Assembly (NCBI GenBank): GCA_965226495.1
Contig: OZ245365.1
Coordinates: forward strand, 5,529,783 to 5,593,782
Direction: 5' to 3'
DNA: 64,000 bases
Source: Candidatus Marinacidobacterales bacterium
GTDB lineage: Bacteria; Acidobacteriota; Vicinamibacteria; Marinacidobacterales; DATDRI01
Part shown: piece by piece, positions 8,536 to 64,000 of the stretch
How the letters are laid out: each line of letters starts with the position of its first letter
How positions within the stretch are numbered: the stretch's first letter is position 1
Position numbers and translations under genes: made by a program
Notes under the pieces: generated by a model
The model's database searches: none
Told to the model about the DNA's origin: nothing
The model's input: only the letters and a program-made list of their open reading frames with translations

Positions 8536-8539
8536 ACTA

Positions 8540-31580: not shown

Positions 31581-31615
31581 TAACCGGCATCGCCTCGCCG
31601 GCACTTTACCTAGAC

Positions 31616-32147
31616 CTACTTGCGGGCGGTCTCGGTATCCTTCTCAGCTTTTTCAGGTGCAGGATTTTCGGGCTCCGGAGGTGGACTCCAGAAGTTCGGG
31701 CTGCCTCCGGCCTTTGCGGCATGCTCACCATGGTAGAGAGCGCAGTTGAAGACGATGCGGAAGGTGCCAAACGATTGGCCTCGCCATTGCGGTCGAAAGC
31801 CAAGCAGGACGACGTGACCCTTGCCGTGGCGAACATCCAAAGCGGCAGCGAAACCGTTGATGTGCTCCTCACCTAGCAAGTAGCCCGACAGAAGGGGAGA
31901 GCCCGCCTCGCCAGGCCACCATCGCAATGAGTGTGGGTATCGATGAATCCGGGAGCGACGACCAAACTCTCAGCATCAATGATCTGGGCGGCCGTTTTCC
32001 CGGCCAGCTCCCCTATCTCGACGATGGTGTCTCCCATGATGCCGACGTCGCCTCGAAACCCGGAATCTCCGGAACCATCAACGTTCCGTTCGTTCTGATG
32101 AGGATGTCAAAATCTTCACCAGCGCTGACACAACCGAACGAGATCAA
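31616..32147 (-). pseudogene. Remnant of an N-acyl-D-amino-acid deacylase-like amidohydrolase (frameshifted, internally deleted)
   Basis: Minus-strand frames read (M)CVSAGEDFDILIRTNGT then a shift, then [53 protein letters not shown], the classic amidohydrolase N-terminus. It is followed by a stop and an unrelated about 100-aa ORF. It is far too short for the roughly 480-aa family. Confidence 0.5.
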
Positions 32148-32267
32148 AATGAGAATTAAGCTGCGTTCGGGCATGGTTCCCCTCGTGGCCCGGAACTGTA
32201 CCGACGGAAACGTAGCCCGGCAAGAGTAGAGCGCCCTGAACCACCGTGGGGAGATTCCTTTCCGAGT

Positions 32268-33140
32268 GTGTTACGCTCGCGCGAAATGCCAGTCTACAAC
32301 GGCACCGGCATGCTCAAGAAGGTCTTGCTCTGTCCGTCCACCTATTACGAGCTGGTTCCAGTCGACGACTACGCGCGAACCGCGCTCGAACGAGGCGACA
32401 AGGTCGACCACGAGAAGGCCGAGGCACAGCACAACGAACTAGTTGATATCTACCGAGATGCAGGGGTTGACGTCTTTTGGACCGAGGAGCCCGACCCCAC
32501 CCGCCACTACGCAGTCAACGCGCGGGATTTCGCCGTCAACTCTCCTGAAGGGTTCGTCATCTGTCGCTTCAAGTATTCGGAGCGCCGAGGAGAAGAGATT
32601 CCCGGCGAAAAACAATTACGGAAATTGGGCTACAACATTTTCGGACACATCGAGCGCGGTTGTTGGGAAGGCGGTGACAATAAGTACATCGACGACAAGA
32701 ATCTCGCCACCGGAACAGGGGAGCGAAGCACCTGGCCCGGTATTCACAACGCACAAGAGATATTCGCCAAACAAGGCATCAAGGTGCATGGCATTCCCTT
32801 CCCACCGAAATGGACTCATCTTGATTGTCTTTTCGCTCCCGTCGCCCCGAAGCTGGCTTTGATCGTGAAATCCGAGGTCCCCGACTGGTTCGTGGGATTT
32901 CTCGAAGGCCGAGAATGCGAGCTGGTAGACATCCCCGTAGAAAAAGCCGAAGGAGAGGTCGCCCTCAACGTATTGTGTCTTGGCAAGGATCGAGTTATCT
33001 CTTTCAAAGACAACACGTATATCAATGACATCTTGAAAGGCCTGGGGCTAACTGTCTACGCACCAGATCTAAGCGAGTACACCGAGCGCGGTCAGGGACC
33101 GCATTGCCTGACCTGCGAGCTCGATCGAGATCGGGAATAG
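32268..33140 (+). CDS. Amidinotransferase-superfamily enzyme (DDAH/arginine-deiminase-like fold)
   Basis: CWEGGDNKYIDDKNLATGTGERS (EGGD...G.SERT motif) and C-terminal GQGPHCLTCEL (GG.HC catalytic Cys). About 290 aa fits DDAH-size enzymes. Start is GTG 32268 or ATG 32286. Confidence 0.6.
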   Translation: MLRSREMPVYNGTGMLKKVLLCPSTYYELVPVDDYARTALERGDKVDHEKAEAQHNELVDIYRDAGVDVFWTEEPDPTRHYAVNARDFAVNSPEGFVICRFKYSERRGEEIPGEKQLRKLGYNIFGHIERGCWEGGDNKYIDDKNLATGTGERSTWPGIHNAQEIFAKQGIKVHGIPFPPKWTHLDCLFAPVAPKLALIVKSEVPDWFVGFLEGRECELVDIPVEKAEGEVALNVLCLGKDRVISFKDNTYINDILKGLGLTVYAPDLSEYTERGQGPHCLTCELDRDRE

Positions 33141-33215
33141 GCATGCTCGTCAGCTCGGGTCGTATCAACAATATTTATTTTGAAAAAGCCCGCTAGTGAA
33201 CGGGTAGGAGATGCC

Positions 33216-33568
33216 ATGAAGATCACTCTATTTCGACGCCTGGCTCTAACCGTTTTGTTACGGGGTGATGGGCGGCAGCATGCAACCAACAAGGCCACGT
33301 CCAGGTGCTCCTCAACATGATCGAGTTCGGGATGAATGTGCAGGAGGCGGGTGAGGCACCACGGTTCCGGCACTTCACCGGTCCAAACGTCGGCTTCGAA
33401 TCGGGGATCGACATCGAAGTGCTGCAGGAGCTCATCCGAAAGGGTCATCGGCCCATGACGCGCATGGGAGTCTATGGCGGATACCAAGCCATCCGGATTG
33501 ATTGGGAAACCGGCGTCCTCATCGGAGGCTCCGATCCCCGCAAGGACGGGGCCGCCATGGGTTATTGA
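33216..33568 (+). pseudogene. ggt: gamma-Glutamyltranspeptidase remnant: signal-peptide-like start plus only the last about 90 aa of the small subunit
   Basis: 33305-33568 encodes (Q)VLLNMIEFGMNVQEAGEAPRFRHF...GGYQAIRIDWETGVLIGGSDPRKDGAAMGY*, which matches the GGT C-terminus (…LQMVVNSIDYGMNVAEATNAPRFHHQW...GASDPRSVDDLTAGY). 33216 encodes MKITLFRRLALTVLL in another frame. The N-terminal 400+ aa are missing. Confidence 0.7.
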
Positions 33569-33628
33569 GCTGAATCAGGGGAGGTGCAGTTCAACCGCAG
33601 TTTGTGTCGGGGCCGAGTCGAAGGAGAC

Positions 33629-35638
33629 CTATTTCTTCTCTTGCTTTTCACGTTTCCACGGTTCCCAGTCCATCCCCATGACATATTTCTGCATCCACCT
33701 GATCTCTTCATTGTCGCGGGTGCGCTGGTGTCTAGCTTCCTGGAAACGATGTGGCTCGCGCGGAAATCTCACATAACGCACCGGCGCCTTGCCGATGTCT
33801 TTGAGGGCGGTAAAGAACATCATGGCCTGGTTGGCGGTACTGACCAGATCGCGATCCCCGTGGAGTAGGATCGTTGGGGTCGTCACGTTCTTGACGTACC
33901 AGAGTGACGAAACCCGGCGCCACTCCTCCGGATTGATCCAGTGGGCTCCCCCAATATAGTGAAGCCTGAGGTCAAAGCTGTTCCCGGGTCCCGTCTCTGC
34001 CGTCCAACTTCCCACCATCGCCCCGAGCGACGCGGCCTTGAAACGGTTGGTCTGAGTAATAACCCAGCTCCCAAGAATTCCTCCCCAACTCCAGCCGCGC
34101 AGCGCCAGCCGCTCTGGATCGACGTTTCGCTCTGCAATCACATAGTCGACGCCGGTCATGAGATCCTCGTACTCGCCACCGCCCACGTCGCCCATTAGTG
34201 CAGTCAGAAGATCATCGCCATAGCTGTCGCTACCGCGGATGTTCGGCCCCAGGGAGGCGTACCCCAGGCCCCCGAAAATGTGGAACTCGGTCCGGAACCG
34301 GTTCCAATAGTGATCCTCGGGGCCGCCGTGGATGTGGAGGATGAGGGGAAGCTTGGTCCCGGCCCGATGGTCCCCGGGCAGATAGAACACCCCTTCGATC
34401 TCCATCCCATCCTTGCTCTTCCAGCGGATTATCTCCGCCTTCGCCATCAGAATCTCTTTTTCGATCCAGGGGTTGGCGTTCGTTAGACGCACTGGGTTGA
34501 GCTCATCCAACGAAGACGAATACAAATCGGTCGGAGTTTTGAAATCGTTGAGCGAGTAGACCATTCTCGATCGATCTTTCGAGAAATCGAGAGCGCGGAG
34601 GGTACCGCTGACGCTCGTGACGTCGGTGACACGGTTCGTCGCGACGTCGAGGCGCTGGAGATTGCTGTTCGTCCGGCGCGTCTCGTTGAACAGCAGGCTC
34701 TTGCTGTCCGGCGCCCAAGTAAGATTGGAGATCTCGCCTTGATTCTGACCTTGAAGTTTCTTCTTCTCTTTTGTTTCCGGATTCATCACCCAGATAAAAC
34801 CGTTGGTTAGTTCGTACTCGCCGTCGGAAGGGGCGTGGTAGGCAATGGTTTCGCCATCCGGAGACCAGATAACGCTGCTTTCGGGAGCGTTGTTATTGGT
34901 GAGGCGAACGATCTCAGGCTTCCCGGTATCGACGAGGTAGAGCTCCGACAAGTAGAAGTAATCATCGAGTTCCTGCCGCTCCGCCGCAAAGACTGCTCGC
35001 TCGCCGTCCGGCGAGATGTCGAACTCACTGATGACGAGCTCTTCGTCCGTGAGGCGGATCTCTTCCATGGAAGAAAGGTCGAGCGCCCAAAGGTTGCGCC
35101 AACTTCCTTCCTCTCGCCCATGCGGGCCCTCACGGACGAAGTATGCATCCTCCCCCTTGTCATGCTCCTTTTCCTTTTCCTCGCTCAGCGCCTCGTCGGC
35201 GGTGAAGAATATCCCACGCCCGTCCGGAGACCATTTGTAAGACTCGACACCGTTCTCATGATCGGTGAGTCTCGTGGCCTCGCCACCATCGGTTCTCATC
35301 CAAAAGACCTGGTCGTCGTCATCGATGGACCTAAAAAAAGAGAGATACTTCCCGTCCGGGGAGAACTGGAACGATTCGCCCCCCGCGTCCCCAATGAACT
35401 GAGTGGCATCCCCGCCTCCGGCGGGAATCATGTAGTATTTCTTCTTCCTCTCGTTCTCGTCCCAATCGAGCTCCGATTCAGAAAAGAAGACCCATTCGCC
35501 ATCCGGGGCCATGATCACGTCTGCGATGCGGATCATGTTCAGGGCGTCGTCGACAGTCATGGGACGGCGTGCCGAACCTTGTGCGAGAAGGCTCGAACCA
35601 ATGAACACACCAGTAACGATGCTGATGCTTACGCGCAT
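33629..35638 (-). CDS. S9-family serine peptidase (N-terminal beta-propeller plus prolyl-oligopeptidase/acylaminoacyl-peptidase catalytic domain)
   Basis: Signal peptide. WD40-like propeller repeats (FSPDGKYLSF, WSPDGRGIFF, WSPDGETIAY). Catalytic GWSWGGILGS (GxSxGG) with downstream Asp/His region (LLHGDRD...PHRF). Confidence 0.85.
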   Translation of the reverse strand: MRVSISIVTGVFIGSSLLAQGSARRPMTVDDALNMIRIADVIMAPDGEWVFFSESELDWDENERKKKYYMIPAGGGDATQFIGDAGGESFQFSPDGKYLSFFRSIDDDDQVFWMRTDGGEATRLTDHENGVESYKWSPDGRGIFFTADEALSEEKEKEHDKGEDAYFVREGPHGREEGSWRNLWALDLSSMEEIRLTDEELVISEFDISPDGERAVFAAERQELDDYFYLSELYLVDTGKPEIVRLTNNNAPESSVIWSPDGETIAYHAPSDGEYELTNGFIWVMNPETKEKKKLQGQNQGEISNLTWAPDSKSLLFNETRRTNSNLQRLDVATNRVTDVTSVSGTLRALDFSKDRSRMVYSLNDFKTPTDLYSSSLDELNPVRLTNANPWIEKEILMAKAEIIRWKSKDGMEIEGVFYLPGDHRAGTKLPLILHIHGGPEDHYWNRFRTEFHIFGGLGYASLGPNIRGSDSYGDDLLTALMGDVGGGEYEDLMTGVDYVIAERNVDPERLALRGWSWGGILGSWVITQTNRFKAASLGAMVGSWTAETGPGNSFDLRLHYIGGAHWINPEEWRRVSSLWYVKNVTTPTILLHGDRDLVSTANQAMMFFTALKDIGKAPVRYVRFPREPHRFQEARHQRTRDNEEIRWMQKYVMGMDWEPWKREKQEKK

Positions 35639-35639
35639 A

Positions 35640-36130
35640 ATTGAATCACGGAGCTATTCCAACCTTCCTCTGTGTTCTGGGCACCGCGGATGCCGACCTG
35701 CACCGCCCGCTTGGGATCGAGCAACCCCTCTTCGACAGCCCGTCGGAACGGCGCGGCGTGCACCTTACGGCAGAACTCCGCAATATCTTCGAGCGCTTCT
35801 TCCACGTTGTAACCATGTGTCAGAATGACGTCACCCCAAATCGGCCACGCGGCAAAGCTCGTAGGGATCGATCTTGCTGACGTGATGGATAGCGCGCATC
35901 AGGCTCGAGCTGTTTCGCATTTCGCAAGGGCCATGCCGTGCGCCGGTCCTATTGGTGACCGCGATGTCGAACGGCACACCAATCAAGCCGATGTCTACTT
36001 CAGAGGGATCACGAACGAGCGGGGCACGCATGAAGGTAGCGATGTCCGTGTAGCGCGGCGACAGCACGGGGTTATAGTCGTCGGCCACGAGCCGTGTCCG
36101 CTCCTTTGGCTTGTTCACGATATATAGCTT
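35640..36130 (-). pseudogene. Agmatinase/arginase-family (ureohydrolase) remnant: frameshift, about 50-aa internal deletion removing the Mn-binding motifs, and 3' truncation
   Basis: Frame 1 reads DIATFMRAPLVRDPSEVDIGLIGVPFDIAVTNRTGARHGPCEMRNSS...RVADLG*, the family N-terminus. After a +1 slip at TTGGGG it continues DLGDVILTHGYNVEEALEDIAEFCRKVHAAPFRRAVEEGLLDPKRAVQVGIRGAQNTEEGW...LCA*. This skips the GGDH/DAHxD region and ends where the S9 gene starts. Confidence 0.65.
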
Positions 36131-36170
36131 CCCCGTGCTCGTTGAACCCTCTTGGACAGTGCCCGGACCG

Positions 36171-38318
36171 ATGATGATAATGATAGCCGTGACGACAAGG
36201 CAAACCGCTGCTCGGTTGGCCGCCTGCACCTGCCTCTGGGTGACAGCGCTCTTTGCCACATCGTGCAATTGGCTCTCAGATGAGCCACCACCAGCGGCAC
36301 GGCACCTCGTCCTCGTCACCATCGACACGTTGCGCGCCGATCGTCTCGGGATCTACGGCAACAAGGACGTGGCCACACCACACATGGACCGGCTGGCGGA
36401 AGAAGGAGCGATGGCACCGGACGCAACGGTCCATGTGCCTCTGACTCGTCCCTCACACGCGTCCCTGTTTTCCGGTCTCCTGCCTTCAGAGCATGGTATC
36501 CGCGATAATGTCGCACCGAGCCTCGACCCCGACATCCCGTTGCTAGCCGAGGTCCTGAAGGCAGCGCGCTTTCGCACCGCCGCCTTCGTCTCTTCGGTCG
36601 TGCTCGAAGCGCAGTCCGGCCTCGACCGAGGCTTCGAACTCTACGGCGATGAGTTCGAAGAAGAAGACGGTGACGACGCGCGTTTCCTGAACACGGTCCA
36701 GAAACGTGGTGACCTCACGATGGACGACGCCCTGGCTTGGCTCGAGTCGAATAGCGCCGGCGACAGGCTCTTCGCGTGGATCCATCTTTACGATCCGCAC
36801 GACCCCTACGAACCTCCCGAGCCCTATGCCACTCAATACGCCGACCGACCCTACGACGGCGAGGTGGCGTGGTCCGATGAGCTGCTCGGTCGCCTCGACG
36901 AGAAACTAGAACTATTGGGTCTACGGGACGACACGCTCCTCATCGTGACATCTGATCACGGCGAAGGCTTGGGAGACCACGGGGAAACCCTTCACGGTTT
37001 CTTCCTCTACCAATCGACTCTCGCCGTGCCACTCCTCTTTCGTGGGCCCGGCGTGGTTCCCGGTCAGCGCCTGTCGGTGACCGCGCGAACTATCGATCTG
37101 TTTCCAACAATGCTCGACCTGCTGGGCTTGAACATTCCGCCGGAGATCCACGTCTCCGGACGTAGCCTGGCAGGTGCGCTGCGGGGAAGGGAAGACCTCG
37201 CCGAGGAATCGTCTTATGCCGAAACCTTGGTGCCGCTTCTCCATTTCGGATGGAGCGATCTCCGATCATTCCGCAAAGGTCGTTGGAAATACATCGAGGC
37301 ACCTCGCCCGGAGCTTTACGACTTGGAGAACGATCCGGGGGAGACGAAGAATCTGGTGAGATCGAAATCGTCCGCGGCCGACTCCCTCCGGTCCAGTCTC
37401 GCTCAAGTTCTCGAGGCGGAGCGCGCGACAGCAAAGTCCGACGTGAGCGATGTCCCTCGCGATCTTCTCGAGAAGCTGGGGGCGCTCGGTTACCTCGGTG
37501 CCGGCGCGTCGGCGACGGAATCCCCGGGAGCGGATCCCAAGGACAAGATCGAAGAGTTTCGTGTCGCGAACGCCTTGATCCGGGAAGGACTCACTCTCTT
37601 CCGCGAGAAGAAATTTTCTCAAAGCATCGAGCGGTTCGAGGAATTGCTCCGTCGACGAATCGAGAGTTTCGAAGTGCACTACTATCTTGGCCGTGGGCTT
37701 TTGGCCTCGAAACGATACTCGGAGGCGGCACCTCACTTCGAAAAGGCGATCGAGCTCCAACCGAGTTACGCAGCTGCCTACGAAGCGCTTGCCGAGTGCC
37801 GCGCCAGCAACGAGGATCTGGAAGGCGCGGTGGCGGCCCTGCAGGAGGGTCAGCGGGCCGTTCCCGGCGACGCCGGGCTGTTCAAACGCGAAGCGAGGGT
37901 TTGGCGATTGCTCAAGAACGGACAGGAGGCACGCCGCGCTTATGAAGCCGCCCTTCCGCTGGCACCCGATGACGCCCTCCTTCGCGTGCAGCTCGGGGAG
38001 CTTCTCCGCGATTTGGGTCACTTAGACGATTCGGTGCGGCGCCTGAAGGAAGCGATCGAGCTCGAGCCTGACCGGGCGTCCTTCTGGAACTCCCTCGGAA
38101 TGGTGCTGGGAGGAAGGGACCAACTCGACGAAGCCGAAAACGCCTTCCGGGAGGCATGGAAGCGGGACGAGTCCAACGCCCAGTACGCCTACAACCTCGG
38201 TTTGGCGCTTCTCCGTCTAGGACGCGCTGAGGAAGCTCGGGGTTTCTTCGAAACCACCCTTCAACTAGACCCGAAGTTCGAAGCCGCCCGCGTCCGTCTC
38301 GTCCAAATGGGCTCCTGA
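36171..38318 (+). CDS. Sulfatase-like (alkaline-phosphatase superfamily) domain fused to C-terminal TPR repeats; Thr in place of the formylglycine Cys/Ser
   Basis: LVLVTIDTLRADRLGIYGN, TPHMDRLAEEGA, then VPLTRPSHASLFSG aligned to the canonical C-T-P-S-R-A-S-L-L-T-G gives T-R-P-S-H (nucleophile Thr, Arg to His). The C-terminal about 280 aa are TPR units. Lipoprotein-like signal (…ALFATSC). Start ATG 36171; the track start is 36111. Confidence 0.72.
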   Translation: MMIMIAVTTRQTAARLAACTCLWVTALFATSCNWLSDEPPPAARHLVLVTIDTLRADRLGIYGNKDVATPHMDRLAEEGAMAPDATVHVPLTRPSHASLFSGLLPSEHGIRDNVAPSLDPDIPLLAEVLKAARFRTAAFVSSVVLEAQSGLDRGFELYGDEFEEEDGDDARFLNTVQKRGDLTMDDALAWLESNSAGDRLFAWIHLYDPHDPYEPPEPYATQYADRPYDGEVAWSDELLGRLDEKLELLGLRDDTLLIVTSDHGEGLGDHGETLHGFFLYQSTLAVPLLFRGPGVVPGQRLSVTARTIDLFPTMLDLLGLNIPPEIHVSGRSLAGALRGREDLAEESSYAETLVPLLHFGWSDLRSFRKGRWKYIEAPRPELYDLENDPGETKNLVRSKSSAADSLRSSLAQVLEAERATAKSDVSDVPRDLLEKLGALGYLGAGASATESPGADPKDKIEEFRVANALIREGLTLFREKKFSQSIERFEELLRRRIESFEVHYYLGRGLLASKRYSEAAPHFEKAIELQPSYAAAYEALAECRASNEDLEGAVAALQEGQRAVPGDAGLFKREARVWRLLKNGQEARRAYEAALPLAPDDALLRVQLGELLRDLGHLDDSVRRLKEAIELEPDRASFWNSLGMVLGGRDQLDEAENAFREAWKRDESNAQYAYNLGLALLRLGRAEEARGFFETTLQLDPKFEAARVRLVQMGS

Positions 38319-41323: not shown

Positions 41324-42109
41324 ATGAGCCACAAGAAACCACCTTCTGGAACGCAGGCAGTATTGCGTGCAATCGCGTTACTCAAAGCCTTCACCGGAGA
41401 CAAGCCGGAGATGGACCTTCCAGATCTCGCCGATCGGGTGGGCCTTACCAGGACGACGACACACCGCTTGTTGTCCGCTCTGGAAAGTGAGGACCTCGTT
41501 GCCAAGGATCCGTTGTCCCATGGTTACCGCTTGGGGCCGGCCGCGATCGCTCTAGGGTCTCGAGCGTTGCGCACGAACGACTTGCGTAAGATTGCCCGGC
41601 CGTACCTTGAATCGCTAGCCGCTCGCACTCGGGAAACGGCAACACTCGAAGTATTGGTAGATGGCTGGATGTTGATCCTCGATGAAGTGCTGGGGGCGCA
41701 TTTGGTCGGTACGACTCCTTCGGTCGGAACGTCCTGGGCCATCCATGCGACCTCCACCGGTAAGGTGTTGCTCGCACACCTGCCGGAAACCGATCGAAAG
41801 AAGCTCTTGAAGAAACCTCTTACTCGCTATACCCCGCGCACCATTACCGACTCGCGAGAGCTGCAAAAAGAATTCGATCAGGCGCGCCAGCGGGGTTACG
41901 CGATTGCTGCGGAAGAGCTCGAGGAGGGTTACGTGGCGGTGGGCGCGACCATCACCGGTCCACTCGGGAACCCAGTCGGAAGTCTGAGCGTCGGAGGTCC
42001 CAGTGTTCGTCTCAAGCGGAACCAGCTTTCCGATCTGGGAAAGCTCGTCACCGCAGCTGCCCGCCAGGTCTCGATACGTCTAGGCTACGAGACCACCGAC
42101 TTCAAGTGA
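41324..42109 (+). CDS. IclR-family transcriptional regulator
   Basis: N-terminal HTH (VLRAIALLKAFTGDKPEMDLPDLADRVGLTRTTTHRLLSALESEDLV) and C-terminal IclR effector-binding fold. Start chosen at ATG 41324. Confidence 0.8.
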   Translation: MSHKKPPSGTQAVLRAIALLKAFTGDKPEMDLPDLADRVGLTRTTTHRLLSALESEDLVAKDPLSHGYRLGPAAIALGSRALRTNDLRKIARPYLESLAARTRETATLEVLVDGWMLILDEVLGAHLVGTTPSVGTSWAIHATSTGKVLLAHLPETDRKKLLKKPLTRYTPRTITDSRELQKEFDQARQRGYAIAAEELEEGYVAVGATITGPLGNPVGSLSVGGPSVRLKRNQLSDLGKLVTAAARQVSIRLGYETTDFK

Positions 42110-42441
42110 GACCGCAACTCGAAACGAGGAGCAGACAGGTCCTCGCGGCCCTCGATGACCGCGACATCTTCATTGTTGGCGGCGACTCCGAACAACCGAG
42201 AGGGGAATTCCCCTCCGCCAATGCTCTTCTCGCCGCGATCCGGAACTCCAAGCATCAATTCGATGAGATCGAGATGGCTGCCTATCCGGAAGGCCATCCC
42301 TTCCTCAGTGACGCAGAGTTACTCGAAGCTCTTCACGAGAAACAACCCTTCGCCTCCTATATGAGCAATGGCGGAAGAAACTGCTGGCACGGCTCGAAAC
42401 CATGTTGGCTTGAGGGTAGGATAGACCGGCCAGGAATGTAA
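42106..42441 (+). pseudogene. Methylenetetrahydrofolate reductase (MetF) internal fragment, about 80 aa
   Basis: DIFIVGGDSEQPRGEFPSANALLAAIRNSKHQFDEIEMAAYPEGHPFLSDAELLEALHEKQ aligns with E. coli MetF residues about 110-190 (IVALRGDLPP...[28 protein letters not shown]). No FAD-binding N-terminus or C-terminus is present. Confidence 0.6.
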
Positions 42442-44229: not shown

Positions 44230-45719
44230 TGGAGTCACTGCGAAACCCGATCGTCCTCGGGAGCGTCGCCCTCTACATGGCTGTGTGCGTCGGCATGGGC
44301 ATCTGGGCACTCCAACGAACGAAGTCGACGCGCGACTTCTTCATGGCCGGTCGCAACCTCGGCATGCTCGTTACCGGGGTGGCTCTTTTCTCCAGCATGA
44401 TGAGTGGATTCGGTTTCGTGGGAGGCCCTGGCCTCGTGTACCTCATGGGGATGAGCTCGGTTTGGATGATCGCAACGGTGCCCGCCGGCTGGGCAGTCAC
44501 CGATTTTCTGGTCGCCAAACGTCTACGAGTATTTGCGGGCGTCTTCGACACCATCTCCCTCCCCGACGCGGTGGCGGCCCGATACGGCAGCGAGACAAGC
44601 CGCCTTCTTACTGCGGTTGCTCTCCTCTTGGGTGTCATGGGCTACCTGGCCACACAGATACTCGCCATGGCGATCGTGTTGCAAACGATCCTCCAAAACT
44701 CGCTCGGCGAGATCGGACTGGTGACCTGCGCGGCGATCGCCTGTACGGTCCTCGTTTTCTACAGTGTCACTGGTGGGATCATCGCATCCGTCTACACCGA
44801 TATCGTGCAGGGCACGGTGATGGTCGTGGCGGGTGTGCTCATTTTTTTCACTGCCATCTCTGTATTCGAAGGTGGCGGGAACGCGGCGACGACGATGATC
44901 ATGAACGATGATCCAGAGGCGATCGGTCCCTGGGGAACGCTGGGCATGATCGGCTGTCTCTCTTGGTTCTTCATGTTCACCGTGGGCAATGCCGGACAAC
45001 CTCACATCGTGACCAAAGGCATGATGATCCGGCGGCTCCAAGACTATCAATACATTCCGCTCATTTCCGTTTTCGGATACACCCTGACCGCACTACTTTG
45101 GGTCAGCATCGGACTCGTGATGCGAGCACTGGTCCTCCAGGGGGCTCACCCCGAGCTCGCTACGGCCGACGCCGCCGCACCGGAGTTTCTCCAACACTAC
45201 GCCCATCCGATCCTTGCTGGTTTGGTTTTCGCGGCGCTGTTTGCCGCCATCATGTCGACGGCGGACGTCTTCCTCAATATCGGGGCCGCCGCCGCCGTCC
45301 ACGACATCCCGCGGGCGATCCTCCGCCGTCCCCTCGCGAACGAGCTCTTCTGGGCTCGCGCGGGCACGATTGTCATCGCGGTCGTCGCTCTACTCTTCGC
45401 GATGTACTCCTACTATGAGAACGCTCGTTTTGTCGCGTTGCTGGGCGCTTTCGGATGGGGTACTTTCGGAGCGGCGCTGGTGCCGGTGGTCGCCATCGGG
45501 TTCAATTGGAAACGGGCTACACCTTTGGCGGCTAACGTCGCCATCGTATCGAGTCTGCTCGTGAACTTTGGTATCGAAGTCTTCGACGTCAGCATCCCTC
45601 ATAACATTCACGGCGGCACGATTTCGTTGCTGGTTTCCTTATTCCTGTTTTTCACAATCTCTTTTGCTTCGACCCCGCCGAAATTGAGTGCCGACGTCGA
45701 AGCTGCGATGGACATCTGA
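44226..45719 (+). CDS. Sodium:solute symporter (SSS family)
   Basis: Starts MMESLRNPIVLGSVALYMAVCVGMGIWALQRTKSTRDFFMAGRNLG, the SSS N-terminus, with about 13 TM helices. The track ORF start at 44013 is an out-of-context extension. Confidence 0.85.
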   Translation: MMESLRNPIVLGSVALYMAVCVGMGIWALQRTKSTRDFFMAGRNLGMLVTGVALFSSMMSGFGFVGGPGLVYLMGMSSVWMIATVPAGWAVTDFLVAKRLRVFAGVFDTISLPDAVAARYGSETSRLLTAVALLLGVMGYLATQILAMAIVLQTILQNSLGEIGLVTCAAIACTVLVFYSVTGGIIASVYTDIVQGTVMVVAGVLIFFTAISVFEGGGNAATTMIMNDDPEAIGPWGTLGMIGCLSWFFMFTVGNAGQPHIVTKGMMIRRLQDYQYIPLISVFGYTLTALLWVSIGLVMRALVLQGAHPELATADAAAPEFLQHYAHPILAGLVFAALFAAIMSTADVFLNIGAAAAVHDIPRAILRRPLANELFWARAGTIVIAVVALLFAMYSYYENARFVALLGAFGWGTFGAALVPVVAIGFNWKRATPLAANVAIVSSLLVNFGIEVFDVSIPHNIHGGTISLLVSLFLFFTISFASTPPKLSADVEAAMDI

Positions 45720-46994
45720 TGCCGACGAAACTCCTCAACTTCCTTTTGTTGATTCTCCTCGCGGTGCCGTCCTTCCCACAGGGGTTGCCTAGCGCAAAGC
45801 CCGAGGATGTCGGCATGTCGACGGCGCGACTGGAGCGCATCCGCCCGGTCATGCAGGCCTATGTCGATGAGGGAAAGGTGCCCGGCATGATCACCGCCGT
45901 GGCACGGCGGGGGAAGCTGGTCCATGTCGATCAGCTGGGAATGATGGACCTCGAGCCAGGGAAGAAGATGAGATCCGACACCATCTTCCGCATCTACTCC
46001 ATGACCAAGCCGGTTACCGCCGTGGCGATGATGATCCTCTATGAGGAGGGGCGGCATCGCTTGAACGAACCGGTCTCGAAGTACCTCCCCGAATTGCAGA
46101 ACTTGACGGTCTAGCTGGGGGGGGCTGGGCAAGAATCTGCGCACGGAGCCGGCGAGGCCGATGACGATCAAGCACCTCCTCCTTCACACCTCAGGTTTGA
46201 TCTATGGAGCCGATGAGCCCGGAGTCCCCCAACTCTACCGGGACGCCGAGATCTGGGAAGCGGTCAGCCTTGAGGACTTCGTCGACAAGCTTGCGGGGCT
46301 TCCGCTTCTCGCCCAACCGGGAACGGAGTGGAATTATGGCGTATCGACGGACGTTCTCGGTCGATTGGTAGAAGTCCTTTCCGGAGAACGTTTCGAAGAA
46401 TTCCTGGAAGAGCGCATTTTTCTGCCCCTCGGGATGGTGGACACGGCCTTCTACGTTCCGGACGAAAAGCTCGACCGCTTCGCAGCCAACTACCAAGCCA
46501 CACCAGAGGGTGGCTTGAAGCTCATCGACTCGCCCAAAAACAGCGAGTTCCGAAATCCGAATCCAGTGCCCTACGGCGGTCAAGGCCTGGTCTGCACCGT
46601 CGGCGACTTCGTACGTTTCGCCCAGATGCTCGCCAACGGTGGAGAGCTCGACGGGGTTCGGATCCTCGGACGCAAGACCGTAGACTTCATGATGCTCGAC
46701 CATTTGGGACCCGAGCTGGGGCCCGCGCCGCTCGGCGAGGCCGCGGGTTGGTACGGGATGAGCCCCGAAGGCTTGGGCTTCGGACTTGGCGGCTCCGTCG
46801 TGCGCAACGTCGCTCAGAACTCCTTGATCGGCTCGACCGGCGACTTTTCCTGGGGCGGGGTAGCGAGTACCTACTTCTGGATCGATCGGAGCGAAGCGCT
46901 CATCGCCGTGCAGTTCACCCAACTCATGCCCTCCGACAAGTATCCGATCCGTGCCGAGATGAAAATCCTCACCAATCAAGCCATCATCGACTGA
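45719..46994 (+). pseudogene. Beta-lactamase-family serine hydrolase interrupted by an in-frame TAG plus a frameshift at a G8 homopolymer (46117-46124)
   Basis: Part 1 (45719-46114) carries the signal peptide and SMTK (SxxK) motif and ends ...LPELQNLTV*. Part 2 continues in another frame: GGLGKNLRTEPARPMTIKHLLLHTSGL...WNYGVSTDVLG... Removing one G alone does not remove the TAG. The stop of the SSS gene overlaps the ATG (TGATG). Confidence 0.7.
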
Positions 46995-50054: not shown

Positions 50055-51336
50055 TCACCGGTCTTGAAACGTTTCGTCGGAGCGGATCCCGAGCCAGAGA
50101 AGAGCGGCGATCCAACTCACCACAGCGGCGCTTCCCAAGGCGAAAGACCAGCCGAACCAACTAACCAGCAAAGGGACCAAGGGTGTACAGATGACGCCAC
50201 CCAAGTTGGTCCACATGTTCATCACTCCGCTTGCCGAGCCCGCATGGCGCCCCGAGACGTCCACGATGGACGACCAGTAGGCGCCCTCGGTGAGCTCACC
50301 GAATCCGAAACACGACGAAAGCGCGAGGACCGCGTGCCCGGTATTGGCACCGATCACGAGTGTAATGCCGGATAGCGTCATCCCGATGAGGCCCACCCAC
50401 CTTCTACCCCAACGTCGTCCGATGCGAATCGACAAGCGGTCGGTAATGTGTCCCCCGACCGGCGCCGCGATCCCGCCCACGATGAAGGGCATGCTCGCGA
50501 AGAAACCGCTTTCCAGTATCGTGAACCCTCGCACGTCGATCAGATACAAGAAAACCAGAATACGAAATATAGAAGACGTAGCCGTAGCAGAAGTAGCTTA
50601 TCGAAAGGAGGAAAACGTTCTTGTTCCTGAACAATAGCCACGGATTCGCTGCGGTGGGCGTCGAAACGGTGGTTTCTTCTCCACCTTGGGAAATGATCGC
50701 TAGCTCTCCGCGCGTCACGGCGCGGTGATCCTCCGGTCGCTCGGTGGCGTACCAGCGGTACAACACGGCGATCAAGAAGGCGAAACCGGCGGCCACGTAG
50801 AACGCGTTACGCCACCCTACTGTCACCATCAACGACGAAATCACGGGCGGCGTAAAGGCGGAACCGATCGATAGCCCGCCGATCAAAAGAGCGAGCGGGA
50901 AAGCTCGCCCGTTCGAAGGAAACCAGTTTGCTACCGCCCGGGCCGCTACCGGATAAGTGGGTGCTTCCACGACGACCCCCAGGAGGAAGCGCAACACGAG
51001 CAAAGAAACTAGCGCGGCGAACCCGCCGGGAACGAGCAGACCGGGAACCAACCCGCTCAAGACGGTGAAGATTCCCCAGAAGAAGGCCGCTCCCCATAGA
51101 ACCCGCCACGCCCCGAAACGGTCCCCAATCCAACCGGCCGGAATCTGGCAGATGGTATAGCCGATCATGAAGCTGCTGAAGACCCAACCCATCTGCTGTT
51201 CAGACAGGTCGAGCTCGGGCATCATGAACGCCGAGGCAACGGAGATGTTCATCCGCTGCAGATAGCTGACGAAGCTAAACCCGACCAAGAGGGCCAGGAT
51301 CTTCCACCGAACTCTGGAAGCCCTGGAAGGGGACAT
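50055..51336 (-). pseudogene. MFS transporter with an apparent +1 frameshift around 50575 (or sequencing error)
   Basis: N-half ORF (51336-50404) has TM1-6 and ends ...YFCYGYVFYI then nonsense. C-half ORF (50549-50055) resumes ...IFRILVFLYLIDVRGFTILESGFFASMPF... in the +1 frame (TTG/ATA region). Together they make one 12-TM MFS. Confidence 0.65.
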
Positions 51337-52900: not shown

Positions 52901-54192
52901 CTAATCGCCGTCTTTCTCGAAACGGGACAGCGAAAAGAATGGGTCGGGGGTCCGCTTTTCTAGCACGAGCTCGGCAACCTGTTCGCCAACCGCGGGGCCG
53001 TGTTTAAACCCGTGTCCGGAGCCTCCACCAACCAGCCACACGTTCTCTAAACGTGGATGGCGATCGAGTATGAAGTGTGAGTCGGGACTGTTCTCGTACT
53101 GACACACGCGCGCCTCGAGAAGGGGAGCCCCCTTGAGGCCGGGGAATCGGAACTCGACATAGTCACGTGCCGCCGATAGTGCGGTCGGCGAGTAGGTTCT
53201 TTCACCGTCAGTAGGATCGAACGGCTCGCCTCGACCATCGTCTGCGATTTTGAATCCCCGCCACTCGCTTCCTGGAATGCCATAGAAGAGACGCTCGCCG
53301 TTATCGATCCATACCGGAAGGGTGTGGCCCGAGTAGCGAGAGTCTCCAGGCGGCGTGCCAAAGTAAAAGATTTCCTGTCGCGTCGGGCGGATGCGATCTC
53401 CTAGGACATCGGGGAAAAGCCTGCCGAGCCAAGGACCGCAGGCGAAAACGAACTGGTCGCCGGAAACGAGGGACCCATCCGGGAGCAGGACCCCTCCCAA
53501 CTTTCCGTTCTCATCGGGTCTCGGTTTAGCCGCACTCTGAAGGTACTGACCTCCTTCGGCGAGGAAGCCTTCGAGAACAGCGGCGCAAGCCCGACGCGCC
53601 AGCAAGTAGCCCGCGTCTTGTTCCTGGATCGCCCAACGGACGCCCTCGAAATGGATCTGGGGAAACCGTCGTCGCGCCTCTGCCACATCGAGCTCCTCGA
53701 ACCGGAGTCCGACGTCGCGCAATATGGGTAGAGATGCTTTTTCGTAGCCGTCGTTCTCCCCAACCATCCATAAGGCGCCGGTCGGTCGGTAAAGCGGACG
53801 GTTCCAGAGTTTCTCGTTCTCTTTCCAGAGCGCGAGCGAACGGGCCACCATCTCGGCGTAGATCCGATCCGGACCGTAGGTTCCCCGAATGACCCGCGAC
53901 TCGCCCCCCGAGCTTGCCCGGGAGTTCCCGGTCCCCAGGTGTCGAGGAGAGTCACCTTGGCACCGCTCCTCGAGAGATGAAGCGCAGTCCAACCCCCGAA
54001 GGCTCCGGCGCCTACCACAACCACTCGCGGTCCTTGGCGCGTCGCGACCTTAGCCGGCTTCCCCTGCGAGCCGAATCCCGGAATCATTGCCACTGCGGCA
54101 CTCGCCTTCAAAAGCGAGCGGCGTGAAACGCCGCCTTCCTTTCGGCTAGGACCACCCCCCTTTTTCGCCATCAGACCTCCTCGGTCCCGCAA
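52901..54192 (-). pseudogene. Sarcosine-oxidase-like FAD oxidoreductase (DAO family) with twin-arginine signal; 1-nt deletion frameshift near 53940 (or sequencing error)
   Basis: Upstream ORF has SRRSLLKASAAVAMIPGFG (a Tat motif) and RVVVVGAGAFGGWTALHLSRSGAKVTLLDTWGPG. Downstream ORF continues NSRASSGGESRVIRGTYGPDRIY... through a C-terminal HGFKHGP. The junction sits in the CCGGGAACTCCCGGG run. Confidence 0.65.
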
Positions 54193-62108: not shown

Positions 62109-62118
62109 GGTCCTGAAC

Positions 62119-62830
62119 ATGCGTAAGCTTCTACTCGCCTTTCTCTTTCGGCGATGGTCGCGTACGCTCAGGAATACGATTCGAGCCTTCCTACTCCCGA
62201 GTCGGTGCTTGGATCTCGGCTCGGTGCCCAGGTCACCGACCACGCCGGCATGGAGCGGTACCTGGCCGCGCTCGCCCAAGCCTCACCGCGTATCGTCTAC
62301 GGCGCCTACGGATCGGATTACGAAAACCGAGAGCTTCGCTACCTCGTCGTCTCGAGCGAAGAGAACATAGGACGCCTGGACGACATCAAATCTGCGAACA
62401 ACCGCCTGACCGACCCCAGAACACTTTCCGTCGGAGATGCTTCGTCTCTCATCGAGAAGACACCGGTAACGGTGTGGCTCAACTGCAGCACGGATGGAAA
62501 CGAGACCGCAGGTTTGGAATCGGCGCTCATGATGGCCTACTACCTCGCATCGGCGACGGACATCGAGACGAAGAACCTGCTCGAAGGGGCGGTGGTCGTT
62601 CTCACTCCCCTCATGAACCCGAGCTCCCGCGGGCCCCACCGGTAATCCCGATGCACAATCCTCCGTGGGGCATCCTGACCAACAATAACCATTACCTCGT
62701 CGACCTCAATCGAGAATCGATCCGGGCAACACAGAAAGAATCGGCAGCGCTCCGCGACTTTTACTACGAATGGAACCCGATGGTCTTCATCGACCTCCAC
62801 GGGCTCCTCCATGGGTCGTCGACCGCCTTC
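62119..62830 (+). pseudogene. M14-family carboxypeptidase remnant (signal-peptide frameshift, internal frameshift near 62640, truncated after the IDLHG region)
   Basis: MRKLLLAFLF(shift)AMVAYAQEYDSS...GMERYLAALAQASPRIVYGAYGSDYENRELRYLVV...VWLNCSTDGNETAGLESALMMAYYLAS...VVLTPLMNP then (shift) ...HYLVDLNRE...WNPMVFIDLHG. This matches the M14 order (W.D...H..EW, NPDG, DLNRN, His196). It ends abruptly and abuts S9 sequence. Confidence 0.5.
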
Positions 62831-64000
62831 AATTCAAGCAAGACTACATCGGCTACCTGGATCGTCGCCGTACGCATCTCTACGTTTTGAACGTCGACAC
62901 CGGAAAGCAAACGCAGCTTACCTTCGGCGACTACGACGACTCGCAGCCTGCCTGGTCGCCCGACGGCCAGCGGATCGCGTTTGTGAGCAACCGCACCGAA
63001 GAACCCGACATCAACTACAACACCGACATATGGGTCGTGGATGTCGACCGCCCGGCCGAGCCTGCCAAGCCTGCTAAAGAAGGCAAGCTCACCCAGATCA
63101 CAACCAACCCCGGACCCGATCGCTCGCCGGCTTGGAGCCCCGATGGCCAGTCCATCTATTTTCTTCTCGAGGATAGTGGCGAATTGAACCTGGCGAGCAT
63201 TTCGGCCGGTGGAGGTTCGGTGGCGCGTATCGTCCAATGACCTCGCGTCGTCAACACGTACTCTCTAGGGGCGAGGCGGGGCAGTCGTCGCGCTCGTCAG
63301 CGAGACTCATTTCACACCAGAGGTGTTCACACTCAAGGACGGGAAACTCGAGCAGATCACCCACGCCAACCGCGACCTTTTGGCCGAAGTTCGCCTTGGC
63401 GAAACCGAGAACATCCACTTCAAGAGCAAAGACGGTACCCACATCGAGGGCTTTATTACCAAACCTCCCGACTTTCAGCAGGGCACGCGTTATCCCACAC
63501 TTCTTCGCATCCACGGGGGGCCGATTTCGCAATACGATTTTGGATTCAGTTTCGACGCACAGCTCTTCGCGGCCAACGGCTATGTCGTGGTCCGAACCAA
63601 TCCGCGAGGGATCCTCGGGCTATGGTCAGACCTTCTCGCTCGGAATCTGGCAGAGCTGGGGGGAGAAAGATTCTGAGGATGTGCTAGCAGGTGTTGACTA
63701 CGCGATCGAGCAGGGCTACGCCGATCCTGAACGGCTCGGTGTCGGGGGTTGGTCGTACGGCGGCATTCTGACCAACCACGTCATTACCCGAACCGATCGG
63801 TGCAAGACGGCGATCACCGGAGCCAGCGAGACCCTTTACATCGTCAACTACGGGCACGACATTTATCAGCGGTGGTGGGAGCGCGAGCTAGGACTTCCTT
63901 GAAAGAACCGGGAACTGTGGGAGAAGATGTCTCCGTTCAACAACGTCGAGAAAATCGTCACCCCCACCCTCATCATGGGCGGCGAGAAGGACTGGAACGT
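62770..64000 (+). pseudogene. S9-family peptidase paralog, 5'-truncated, with at least 3 frameshifts; runs off the window end
   Basis: Frame a: ...YVLNVDTGKQTQLTFGDYDDSQPAWSPDGQRIAFVSNR...SPAWSPDGQSIYF...IVQ*. Frame b: ETHFTPEVFTLKDGKLEQITHANRDL...LLRIHGGPISQYDFGFSFDAQLFAANGYVVVRTNPRG. Frame c: SSGYGQTFSLGIWQSWGEKDSEDVLAGVDYAIEQGYADPERLGVGGWSYGGILTNHVI...ELGLP*. Then KNRELWEKMSPFNNVEKIVTPTLIMGGEKD. Same architecture as the intact S9 at 33629-35638. Confidence 0.6.

What the first reader, a model, noticed from the sequence alone, without database searches (positions are those of the whole stretch)
31600..64000. Non-random concentration of frameshifts, premature stops and gene relics
At least eleven loci carry lesions: the HEAT tail, the TonB receptor (IS), D-aminoacylase, GGT, agmatinase, MetF, the serine hydrolase, MFS, the FAD oxidase, M14 and S9b. 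Every long housekeeping or large intact ORF (carB 1073 aa, SNF2 1066 aa, ADOP 818 aa, sulfatase-TPR, S9a 669 aa, fhs) is clean. A uniform sequencing-error process would not spare 3-kb genes, so most lesions are probably biological. That would mean ongoing pseudogenisation in accessory hydrolase/transport genes plus an active IS30. Still, several lesions sit in G/C runs (G8, TTGGGG, CCGGGA), so some may be homopolymer miscalls.
Basis: inference. Interest (0 to 1): 0.5.

Follow-up and report, generated by a model that had tools for sequence, protein, structure and literature searches.

The report
Real gene decay plus active IS30
All eleven damaged genes are really there and almost all are genuine decaying genes, one of them split by a recently active jumping element, in an uncultured Acidobacteriota-like genome; this is ordinary bacterial gene decay, not a sequencing artefact and not a new kind of system.

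Summary
All eleven listed loci carry lesions. Nine lie inside 31600-64000; the HEAT tail (about 16.8 kb) and the TonB receptor with its IS (22.8-26.6 kb) lie outside.

Five loci are deletion relics: D-aminoacylase, GGT, agmatinase, MetF and M14. S9b has an N-terminal truncation, two nonsense codons and two frameshifts. The serine hydrolase has a TAG nonsense codon as well as a G7->G8 insertion, so correcting the G run cannot rescue it. The BlaR1-HEAT tail has a TAA nonsense codon and a frameshift. The TonB receptor is split by a 1078-bp IS30-family element with a 3-bp duplication. Nine other copies are 99.7-100% identical, and precise excision restores a 916-aa ORF. Only MFS and the FAD oxidase rest on one single-base indel each.

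The lesions recur base for base in several other assemblies, including a haplotype that differs by SNPs. Assembly-specific indels exist too, but they are singletons in other genes. Close relatives keep intact GGT, MetF, FAD oxidase and serine hydrolase, and a sister species shows different decay in the same neighbourhood.

The statistics are modest: clustering within genes p=0.008, sparing of the big genes p=0.035, second half against first half p=0.08.

Interest is low.

The parts
14667..16935 (+). BlaR1-type M56 sensor with a C-terminal HEAT-repeat array. TAA nonsense codon at 16773-16775, then a decayed tail with a 1-nt insertion at CCGGGAC (16869-16875). The original stop was at about 16933.
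   Evidence: Pfam M56 and HEAT. HEAT repeats align in frame across the stop. Three-frame reading. The 702-aa product occurs on 6 contigs, and the contig_31 haplotype has yet another frameshift here.
22790..26621 (+). TonB-dependent receptor gene interrupted by an IS. The N-terminal part is 22790-23560 and the C-terminal part is 24642-26621.
   Evidence: CarboxypepD_reg and Plug domains in the N part, OMP_b-brl_4 in the C part. Removing the IS and one GCT copy gives an uninterrupted 916-aa ORF.
23561..24638 (-). IS30-family insertion sequence of 1078 bp. Transposase at 23591-24544 (317 aa), imperfect terminal inverted repeats, GCT target-site duplication at 23558-23560 and 24639-24641.
   Evidence: NCBIfam NF033563 at 290.7 bits against a cutoff of 80. 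Pfam HTH_38 and rve. Nine other insertion sites carry 99.7-100% identical copies, eight of them with 3-bp duplications.
31905..32174 (-). D-aminoacylase (Amidohydro_3) relic. It retains residues 1-98 of a 574-aa gene and has an internal frameshift near residue 35-40.
   Evidence: blastn at 87% to L100 3795-4006. blastx in two frames against the relative's 574-aa protein.
33113..33577 (+). Scar of a beta-lactamase-GGT gene pair. It holds the last ~28 codons of a 477-aa beta-lactamase, then the GGT start codon (33216), a 1325-nt internal deletion (junction 33245-33256) and the last ~100 GGT codons with a further frameshift.
   Evidence: Pfam G_glu_transpept positions 430-512 of 512. blastn to L100. 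Junction sequence. blastx. Full-length GGTs of 554-560 aa fall in the same 90% cluster.
35629..36322 (-). Agmatinase/arginase-family relic in two frames. The middle and C-terminus are lost, and its 3' end abuts the S9a start.
   Evidence: Pfam Arginase 2-57 of 280 and 133-167 of 280. blastx to L072 residues 119-193 and 234-295 in different frames. The same relic occurs on at least 6 contigs.
42055..42417 (+). MetF (MTHFR) relic of roughly 120 of 265-290 codons, strongly diverged.
   Evidence: blastx to MTHFRs that sit beside gcvT homologues in other genomes. Weak Pfam MTHFR hit. Relative L099 has an intact 265-aa MTHFR at the syntenic place, and the relic is only 73% identical.
45719..46994 (+). 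Serine hydrolase (Beta-lactamase family) pseudogene. TAG replaces Tyr at 46112-46114, and a G7->G8 insertion lies at 46117-46124.
   Evidence: Pfam profile positions 4-87 and 88-320 fall in two frames. Alignments to L005 and to the intact 432-aa P0006, which reads ...NLTVYLGGLGKN.... Correcting G8 alone leaves the stop. One inter-assembly SNP, 46584 Gly->Ser.
50055..51336 (-). MFS transporter with a single 1-nt insertion. The frames overlap over 50406-50600, and the event most likely lies in the T-rich stretch 50541-50571 as T3->T4.
   Evidence: Pfam MFS_1 in two frames. Three-frame reading. Deleting any single base in 50406-50600 restores a 426-aa ORF. The fragments occur on 6-7 contigs.
52901..54171 (-). 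FAD-dependent oxidoreductase (DAO family, Tat signal) with a single 1-nt deletion just after the Rossmann motif. Coding strand GGGAAAC has become GGGAAC at 53924-53931.
   Evidence: Pfam DAO positions 36-353 only. The N-terminal GxGxxG motif lies in another frame. Relatives of 423-429 aa are intact and read CCGGGAAAC. Adding one A restores 423 aa.
62154..62761 (+). M14 carboxypeptidase relic. It keeps roughly the first 230 residues of a ~900-aa protein, with a ~50-nt deletion and frameshift at about 62630-62640, and is fused to the S9b remnant.
   Evidence: Pfam Peptidase_M14 positions 1-100 of 286. blastx to L096 (906-aa ORF; gene aa) and to L099 M14 in two frames.
62773..64000 (+). S9b prolyl-oligopeptidase-family pseudogene, which continues to about 64184 beyond the window. 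The first ~130 residues are lost. There is a 153-nt in-frame deletion near 63150, TGA at 63238-63240, G3->G4 at 63265-63272, a 1-nt insertion at 63606-63613 and TGA at 63900-63902.
   Evidence: Pfam PD40 and Peptidase_S9 in three frames. blastx to S9a, L019 and L099. Codon context. Three inter-assembly SNPs lie inside it.

Best explanation
The window comes from an IS-rich, roughly 6.3-Mb genome of an uncultured Acidobacteriota-like bacterium. In it, dispensable accessory genes are being lost by ordinary mutational decay. These are mainly paralogous hydrolases, two transporters and parts of a methylated-osmolyte/one-carbon catabolic neighbourhood.

The proposed sequence of events, with its basis:
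1. Selection on these genes relaxed (inferred).
2. Inactivating events followed: nonsense substitutions, slippage-type single-base indels and one IS30-family insertion (shown).
3. Further point lesions and a deletional bias then cut dead genes down to short relics and fused neighbours (shown by comparison with relatives).

The loci show different ages.
- Recent: the TonB receptor carries only the IS. The MFS and the FAD oxidase carry one indel each, and the FAD oxidase's dN/dS is still like that of intact genes.
- Intermediate: the serine hydrolase and the HEAT tail have two lesions each.
- Old: S9b, M14, agmatinase, MetF, GGT and D-aminoacylase are relics.

Housekeeping genes stay intact because purifying selection removes such mutations there.
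For: Lesion types that base-calling cannot produce:
- A 1325-nt deletion in GGT, about 550 nt lost from metF, 476 of 574 codons lost from the D-aminoacylase, and the M14-S9b fusion.
- Four in-frame nonsense codons, each aligned to a sense residue in homologues or repeat units.
- An IS with a target duplication.

Reproducibility:
- The window is 99.95-100% identical to ENA contigs from two other assemblies and to Logan contigs from two runs across the lesions.
- The fragment proteins occur on 5-9 contigs, including one of 6.34 Mb.
- The contig_31 haplotype differs by 6 SNPs in 15 kb yet shares every lesion there.

Control for random consensus error: indels private to one assembly hit other genes (ADOP and hutF in L098, fhs in a Logan contig) and are not shared.

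No homopolymer signature:
- Only 1 of 8 runs of 7 nt or more is affected. Five of six single-base indels lie in runs of 4 nt or fewer.
- The unmutated contexts are read correctly many times in intact genes.

Relatives:
- Intact FAD oxidase (423-429 aa), serine hydrolase (432 aa), GGT (554-560 aa) and MTHFR (265 aa) exist in relatives.
- Sister species L099 has lost the MFS, gcvT-1 and both amine oxidases instead.

Relaxed constraint:
- 6 of 7 SNPs between near-identical assemblies fall in pseudogenes, and 5 of those 6 are nonsynonymous.
- The metF relic is 73% identical against about 87% for neighbours.
- dN/dS is 0.22-0.31 for S9b and M14, against 0.07-0.22 for intact genes.

IS activity: there are 99.7-100% identical copies at nine other sites, several inside genes, and excision restores the TonB ORF.
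Against: - No raw reads or quality values were available. The sequencing platform is unknown. A noisy stretch in ERZ25071126 contig_1 shows that some of these assemblies derive from error-prone long reads.
- The ENA assemblies may not all be independent; they could share a study, samples or reads.
- MFS and the FAD oxidase each depend on one single-base indel. The FAD oxidase's dN/dS (0.12) does not differ from that of intact genes.
- No intact allele of the same strain was found in the collection, so polymorphism at the lesions could not be shown.
- Local enrichment against the first half of the window is not significant (p=0.08).
- No genome-wide pseudogene census was done.
- Relaxed selection and loss of function are inferred; no expression data exist.
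Confidence: 0.85

Rival explanations
1. Most of the small lesions (single-base indels, perhaps also the stops) are long-read consensus errors, so the genes are intact in the real organism.
For: - All but one of the single-base indels sit at or next to G runs (G3, G3, G4 and G8). Two share the context CCGGGA.
- Assembly-specific indels do occur in these data sets, in L098, L084 and L086.
- One assembly has a very noisy stretch.
- A single-base correction restores the FAD oxidase and the MFS.
Against: - The same lesions appear in every assembly examined, including a SNP-distinct haplotype and two Logan run assemblies.
- Errors private to one assembly fall in other genes.
- Only 1 of 8 long homopolymers is affected, and the same short contexts are read correctly elsewhere.
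- The G8 indel lies two codons after a TAG stop, so correcting it rescues nothing.
- Nonsense substitutions, kilobase deletions and the IS cannot be indel miscalls.
- The 12 small lesions cluster in 7 genes (P=0.008).
Confidence: 0.06
2. The lesions are real but there is no local concentration. The whole genome carries pseudogenes and IS copies at about this density, and the window is simply typical of it.
For: - Second half against first half of the window: Fisher p=0.08 only.
- Two of the eleven loci lie in the first half.
- Flanks of other IS30 copies elsewhere in the genome also show interrupted genes and fragments of other transposases.
Against: - Nine damaged loci lie in 32 kb, four of them packed into two multi-gene scars (31.9-33.6 kb and 62.1-64.2 kb).
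- The sister species shows independent losses in the same neighbourhood. That points to a dispensable, rearrangement-prone region rather than a uniform background.
- No genome-wide count is available either way.
Confidence: 0.3
3. Some frameshifts are functional, for example phase variation at the G8 tract or programmed frameshifting in the MFS or FAD oxidase genes.
For: A G8 tract inside a coding region is the classic form of a contingency locus.
Against: - The G8 tract is preceded by an in-frame TAG, so no tract length gives a full protein.
- All assemblies show the same tract length.
- The other indels lie in runs of 2-4 nt, with no slippery heptamer or downstream structure examined or evident.
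- Relatives encode these proteins in a single frame.
Confidence: 0.02
4. The relics and fusions are assembly chimeras, for example strain or paralogue collapse in a metagenome assembly.
For: - The gene families involved are multi-copy: S9, M14, amidohydrolase and beta-lactamase.
- One assembly differs structurally in the TonB gene.
Against: - The same junctions are found in contigs with two different naming styles, which suggests different assemblers, and in de Bruijn Logan contigs.
- Relic sequences diverge from the relatives' intact copies by 11-27% and carry their own frameshifts. That is not what a chimeric join of intact paralogues would give.
Confidence: 0.02

Closest known systems
Bacterial pseudogene formation and deletional decay of dispensable genes, as described for recently host-restricted or niche-shifted bacteria such as Serratia symbiotica and Sodalis glossinidius (PMC3056288, PMC7067036; listed, papers not read)
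   Same: - The same mix of nonsense codons, short-run indels, truncations and IS insertions.
- Multiple hits accumulate in already dead genes.
- Relics shrink by deletion.
- Core genes remain intact.
   Different: - The genome here is large: the longest contig carrying these fragments is 6.34 Mb.
- Host association is not established.
- The genome-wide pseudogene fraction is unknown.
- Decay is documented only for one accessory neighbourhood.
IS30-family insertion sequences (family properties recalled from my own knowledge of the ISfinder definition: single DDE transposase, about 1.0-1.7 kb, 2-3 bp target duplication)
   Same: - The transposase matches NCBIfam IS30 end to end, well above the cutoff.
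- It has HTH_38 and rve domains.
- The element is 1078 bp with a 3-bp duplication.
- There are many identical copies.
   Different: - The terminal inverted repeats are weak, about 14 of 23 matches.
- No named ISfinder element could be compared.
IS-driven reductive evolution in symbionts, for example anglerfish luminous symbionts and the Azolla cyanobiont (PMC6020299, PMC4369082; listed, papers not read)
   Same: - Several IS families are present near IS30 copies.
- IS copies sit inside genes and inside other IS elements.
- IS content is polymorphic between assemblies.
   Different: - Only a sample of the genome was seen.
- No evidence yet of genome shrinkage, or that the IS elements mediated the deletions seen here.
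Long-read homopolymer frameshift artefacts in metagenome-assembled genomes
   Same: Single-base indels in G runs that split ORFs. Such artefacts do occur in sister assemblies: ADOP and hutF in L098, fhs in L086.
   Different: The lesions in the window are shared by all assemblies, mostly lie in runs of 4 nt or fewer, co-occur with stops and deletions in the same genes, and spare seven of the eight longest homopolymers.

Membership tests
IS30-family insertion sequence | DDE transposase matching the IS30 family model above its curated cutoff | tested here: met
   NF033563 at 290.7 bits against a cutoff of 80, profile positions 1-267 of 267. Pfam HTH_38 and rve.
IS30-family insertion sequence | Compact element of about 1-1.7 kb with one transposase ORF | tested here: met
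   1078 bp, delimited by identity among ten copies. It holds one 317-aa ORF.
IS30-family insertion sequence | Short (2-3 bp) target-site duplication | tested here: met
   GCT on both sides in the window. Eight of nine other copies have 3-bp duplications.
IS30-family insertion sequence | Terminal inverted repeats of about 20-30 bp | tested here: inconclusive
   The ends align at only about 14 of 23 positions.
IS30-family insertion sequence | Evidence of recent transposition | tested here: met
   Copies at nine other sites are 99.7-100% identical (seven at 100%). Excision restores a lesion-free 916-aa ORF. An empty-site allele was not found.
Bacterial pseudogene | Homologous full-length gene exists in relatives | tested here: met
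   Found for the FAD oxidase, serine hydrolase, GGT, MetF, D-aminoacylase and M14. For S9b, arginase and MFS only distant homologues, paralogues or profiles were available.
Bacterial pseudogene | Lesion removes or disrupts conserved domain sequence | tested here: met
   Profile coverage is split or truncated at every locus. The exception is the HEAT tail, where only the last 1.5 repeats are lost.
Bacterial pseudogene | Lesion is a property of the organism, not of one assembly | tested here: met
   The sequence is identical in other ENA assemblies and in Logan contigs, and the fragments occur on 5-9 contigs. Read-level confirmation was not possible.
Bacterial pseudogene | Relaxed selective constraint | tested here: inconclusive
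   The SNP distribution and the divergence of the metF relic support it. dN/dS is only mildly raised for S9b and M14 and not raised for the FAD oxidase. Samples are small.
Bacterial pseudogene | No functional product | not testable with these tools
   This needs transcript or protein data.
Homopolymer sequencing artefact | Indels concentrated in the longest homopolymers | tested here: not met
   One of eight runs of 7 nt or more is affected. Five of six indels lie in runs of 4 nt or fewer.
Homopolymer sequencing artefact | Not reproducible between independent assemblies | tested here: not met
   The lesions are shared by all assemblies. Private indels lie elsewhere.
Genome-wide reductive evolution with IS expansion | High IS load | tested here: inconclusive
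   At least six identical IS30 copies lie on one 2.18-Mb contig, and IS481- and IS256-type transposases lie nearby. No full census was made.
Genome-wide reductive evolution with IS expansion | Elevated genome-wide pseudogene fraction, host restriction | not tested
   Only this window and about 120 kb of IS flanks were seen. The habitat is unknown.

The most novel reading that the evidence does not exclude
The organism is an uncultured marine Acidobacteriota lineage caught early in an IS-driven transition, possibly towards host association. Ankyrin and spondin-N domain proteins lie next to IS copies elsewhere in the genome. Sister species and co-occurring haplotypes show different, datable stages of decay in the same methylated-osmolyte (DMSP / glycine betaine type) catabolic neighbourhood. 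That would give a natural time series of gene loss in a phylum where reductive evolution has hardly been described.
Probability: 0.25. Interest if true: 0.45.

Novelty: new member of a known kind. Interest (0 to 1): 0.22.

Why it matters
**Practical.** Split ORFs in this genome should be annotated as pseudogenes rather than 'repaired' as long-read frameshift errors. The IS30-family element is a useful marker of recent activity. The cross-assembly comparison used here separates true lesions from consensus errors without access to reads.

**Biological.** It documents lineage-specific loss of paralogous peptidases and hydrolases, two transporters, and parts of a one-carbon/methylated-amine catabolic cluster in an uncultured Acidobacteriota-like bacterium.

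It does not reveal a new mechanism.

Tried and rejected
- **Tandem amidohydrolases as the 'D-aminoacylase' lesion.** I first took the genes at 28394-31002 to be this locus. They are intact hutF (GTG start at 28436) and hutI. The real relic is at 31905-32174.
- **Single non-homopolymer insertion in the serine hydrolase.** I considered this model. It was rejected once the intact 432-aa relative showed ...TVYLGGLGKN..., which fits TAG plus G7->G8.
- **The 468-aa ORF at 17002-18405 as a continuation of the HEAT protein.** It is not. It has its own signal peptide and an HExxH motif.
- **GTDB genome scan.** It found no conspecific genome; the best match was 71% amino-acid identity. It gave only partial synteny.
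- **Exact look-ups of 'repaired' alleles.** The TonB empty site, FAD oxidase, serine hydrolase and two MFS models were not found in the collection.
- **The longer 761-aa BlaR1-HEAT product of contig_31.** It is not an intact allele but carries another frameshift.
- **Literature search for the run and assembly accessions.** It found nothing, so the platform and habitat remain unknown.
- **Local homologue set.** It had no good subject for the MFS, so its indel is placed only to about 30 nt.
- **Some dN/dS rows.** The rows for the FAD oxidase N part, the serine hydrolase C-terminus and the MetF relic were out of frame or too short, and are not used.

Full report
**Layout of the window.** GC content is about 59% throughout. 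Profile scans of all coding-like ORFs give the gene map.
- The first half holds purM, carB/carA, an SNF2 helicase, tadA, blaI with a blaR1-HEAT gene, an HExxH protein, an ADOP-type MacB/FtsX permease and an ArsR-AHSA1 regulator. It also holds a TonB-dependent receptor interrupted by a transposase gene, a TPR protein, hutF, hutI and def.
- The second half holds a DDAH-like amidinotransferase, S9a peptidase, a sulfatase-TPR protein, a Cys/Met PLP enzyme, an FG-GAP/ASPIC protein and IclR.
- After these comes a methyl-group/one-carbon catabolic neighbourhood. Its genes are a Zn-ADH, an SSF transporter, a DmdA-like GcvT, a DmdB-like CoA ligase, DUF1326, PpoB2, a GbcA-like Rieske oxygenase, fhs, a second GcvT-family protein and two amine oxidases.
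- The damaged genes lie between these.
- The ADOP permease, and the best GcvT relatives in Acidobacteriota/Polarisedimenticolia MAGs at 70-71% identity, suggest an Acidobacteriota-like organism. This is inference.

**Checking the eleven loci: all are real.**

*Deletion relics.*
- The D-aminoacylase remnant (31905-32174, minus strand) keeps only residues 1-98 of a 574-aa gene that is intact in a relative. It also carries a frameshift.
- The GGT remnant keeps its start codon, lacks 1325 nt internally, and has the last ~100 codons with another frameshift. Just upstream lie the last 28 codons of the 477-aa beta-lactamase that precedes GGT in the relative.
- The arginase-family remnant keeps profile positions 2-57 and 133-167 of 280, in two frames, and runs into the S9a start.
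- The metF remnant has lost about 550 nt. It is 73% identical to the syntenic intact gene of the sister species, where flanking genes are about 87% identical.
- The M14 remnant keeps about 230 of about 900 residues and is fused to S9b.

*Multi-lesion genes.*
- S9b lacks its first ~130 residues. It has a 153-nt in-frame deletion between two PD40 motifs. TGA replaces Gly at 63238 and TGA replaces Trp at 63900. There are single-base insertions at 63265-63272 and 63606-63613.
- The serine hydrolase has TAG where an intact 432-aa relative has Tyr, followed two codons later by G8 where that relative's reading needs G7. Correcting the G run alone leaves the stop.
- The blaR1-HEAT gene has a TAA 53 codons before its original stop and a 1-nt insertion in the now untranslated tail.

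*Single-lesion genes.*
- The FAD oxidase has GGGAAAC shortened to GGGAAC right after its Rossmann motif. One added A restores a 423-aa Tat-signal protein like those of relatives.
- The MFS has one extra base, probably T3->T4. Deleting any one base in 50406-50600 restores 426 aa.

*IS insertion.*
- A 1078-bp element at 23561-24638 is flanked by a GCT duplication. Its removal gives a clean 916-aa TonB receptor ORF.

*Other checks.*
- The tandem amidohydrolases at 28436-31002 are intact hutF and hutI.

**Artefact or biology?** I could not see reads, but exact-protein look-ups retrieved the same locus from several other assemblies.
- Contigs from two ENA assemblies and Logan contigs from two runs match the window at 99.95-100% across the lesions.
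- The fragment proteins occur on 5-9 contigs, the longest of 6.34 Mb.
- One haplotype (contig_31) differs by six SNPs in 15 kb and still has every lesion in that span.
- The data also provide a control. Indels private to a single assembly do exist: C4->C3 in ADOP and an extra A in hutF in L098, G5->G4 in fhs in a Logan contig, and one intergenic indel in contig_31. Each is a singleton and hits a gene that is intact everywhere else.
- The window has eight homopolymers of 7 nt or more, and only the G8 lies at a lesion. Five of six single-base indels are in runs of 4 nt or fewer. The unmutated contexts (GGGAAAC x13, CCGGAC x49, GAGGATC x19, a G7 at 59378) are read correctly in intact genes.
- Nonsense substitutions, kilobase deletions and an IS with a target duplication cannot be homopolymer miscalls.
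- A caveat remains. One assembly has a very noisy stretch, so error-prone long reads were involved somewhere, and the ENA assemblies may share samples.
- For the MFS and the FAD oxidase an artefact is unlikely but not excluded.

**Evolutionary context.**
- Relatives in the same 90% protein clusters have intact FAD oxidase, serine hydrolase and GGT.
- A sister species (L099, 84-90% nucleotide identity) has intact metF and FAD oxidase. It has instead lost the MFS, gcvT-1, part of the CoA ligase, most of the serine hydrolase and both amine oxidases, and it carries an inversion near M14/S9b. The neighbourhood therefore decays independently in both lineages.
- dN/dS against L099 is 0.07-0.22 for intact genes, 0.12 for the FAD oxidase (suggesting recent inactivation) and 0.22-0.31 for M14 and S9b.
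- Six of the seven SNPs between near-identical assemblies fall inside pseudogenes, and five of those six are nonsynonymous. This gives p=5.5e-4 under uniformity and 0.03 if only about 30% of sites in intact genes are treated as free to vary. That fits relaxed constraint, including in the two single-lesion genes, though the sample is small.

**The IS.**
- The transposase matches the NCBIfam IS30 model end to end at 290.7 bits against a cutoff of 80.
- Nine other insertion sites, on a 2.18-Mb contig and in three other assemblies, carry 99.7-100% identical copies. Eight have 3-bp duplications, and several lie inside genes or inside other IS elements. One older degenerate copy is 95.6% identical.
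- Another assembly has an IS256-like insert in the same dead TonB gene.
- The element is therefore recently active. An empty-site allele was not found.

**Is the distribution non-random?** The support is moderate.
- Twelve small lesions fall in seven of 48 genes: P=0.008 if spread uniformly.
- Nine of 27 loci are damaged in the second half against two of 21 in the first: p=0.08.
- The stronger case for biology rests on lesion type, reproducibility and comparison with relatives.
- Whether this region is richer in pseudogenes than the rest of the genome is untested.

**Comparison with known systems and verdict.**
- This is ordinary bacterial gene decay with a deletional bias plus IS30-family transposition. 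The pattern is long known from niche-shifted and host-restricted bacteria (titles and abstracts listed; papers not read).
- The genome is large, and host association is only hinted at by ankyrin and spondin-N domain proteins beside IS copies.
- Novelty is limited to a new instance in a little-studied lineage, and interest is low.

Noticed in passing
window 41300-62100: The intact genes around the pseudogenes form a methylated-osmolyte/one-carbon catabolic neighbourhood. It contains a DmdA-like GcvT (359.7 bits, below the 410 cutoff), a DmdB-like CoA ligase, a GbcA-like Rieske oxygenase, a TMAO-demethylase-like GcvT domain protein, fhs, two amine oxidases, an SSF transporter and IclR. The best GcvT relatives outside Acidobacteriota are marine Gammaproteobacteria, where metF sits directly upstream.
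   Followed up: partly
L087 19957-21317 (ERZ25071126 contig_1), corresponding to window ~25683-25712: Another assembly carries a ~1.36-kb insert in the C-terminal part of the same TonB receptor gene. It matches an IS256-type (Transposase_mut) element seen in L091. The insert is only 88% identical with many gaps, and the flank is 95.6% identical, so this part of that contig is of low quality.
   Followed up: partly
L098 (ERZ28763718 ctg123690), corresponding to window 20050 and 28963: That assembly has private single-base indels that split ADOP (C4->C3) and hutF (A->AA), both intact in the window. A Logan contig (L086) likewise has G5->G4 in fhs at window 56816. These are probably consensus errors and served as a control.
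   Followed up: yes
window 46584, 50044, 50407, 53142, 63095, 63713, 63849: All seven SNPs found between near-identical assemblies lie inside pseudogenes or, for one, 11 nt beyond the end of one. None lies in the ~28 kb of intact coding sequence compared.
   Followed up: yes
window 17002-18405: A 468-aa ORF with a signal peptide and an HELVH (HExxH) motif has a clear coding composition but no Pfam or NCBIfam match.
   Followed up: no
window 43714-44229: A conserved 171-aa ORF with no family match overlaps the start of the SSF transporter gene by 4 nt. It is also present in the sister species (193 aa) and may be a small accessory subunit.
   Followed up: no
window 20799-21608 and 8464-9315: These stretches hold only short or unassigned ORFs with no family match. 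Either could hide further relics.
   Followed up: no
L099 3032-3649: In the sister species the two amine oxidase genes are reduced to four short, scrambled fragments. M14 is 270 aa, and its S9b copy also seems frameshifted near residue 405.
   Followed up: partly
L089-L097 (other sites of the same IS30 element): IS30 copies interrupt an amidohydrolase (L092), a PD40/protein-kinase gene (L093) and another transposase gene (L096). The flanks also carry IS481- and IS256-type transposases, an ankyrin-repeat protein and a Spond_N domain protein (L094).
   Followed up: partly
window 16755 region, contig_31 haplotype (P0038): The contig_31 assembly encodes a 761-aa BlaR1-HEAT product, because an additional frameshift about five codons before the TAA sends it into a wrong frame. 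This is either further decay or an error in that assembly.
   Followed up: partly
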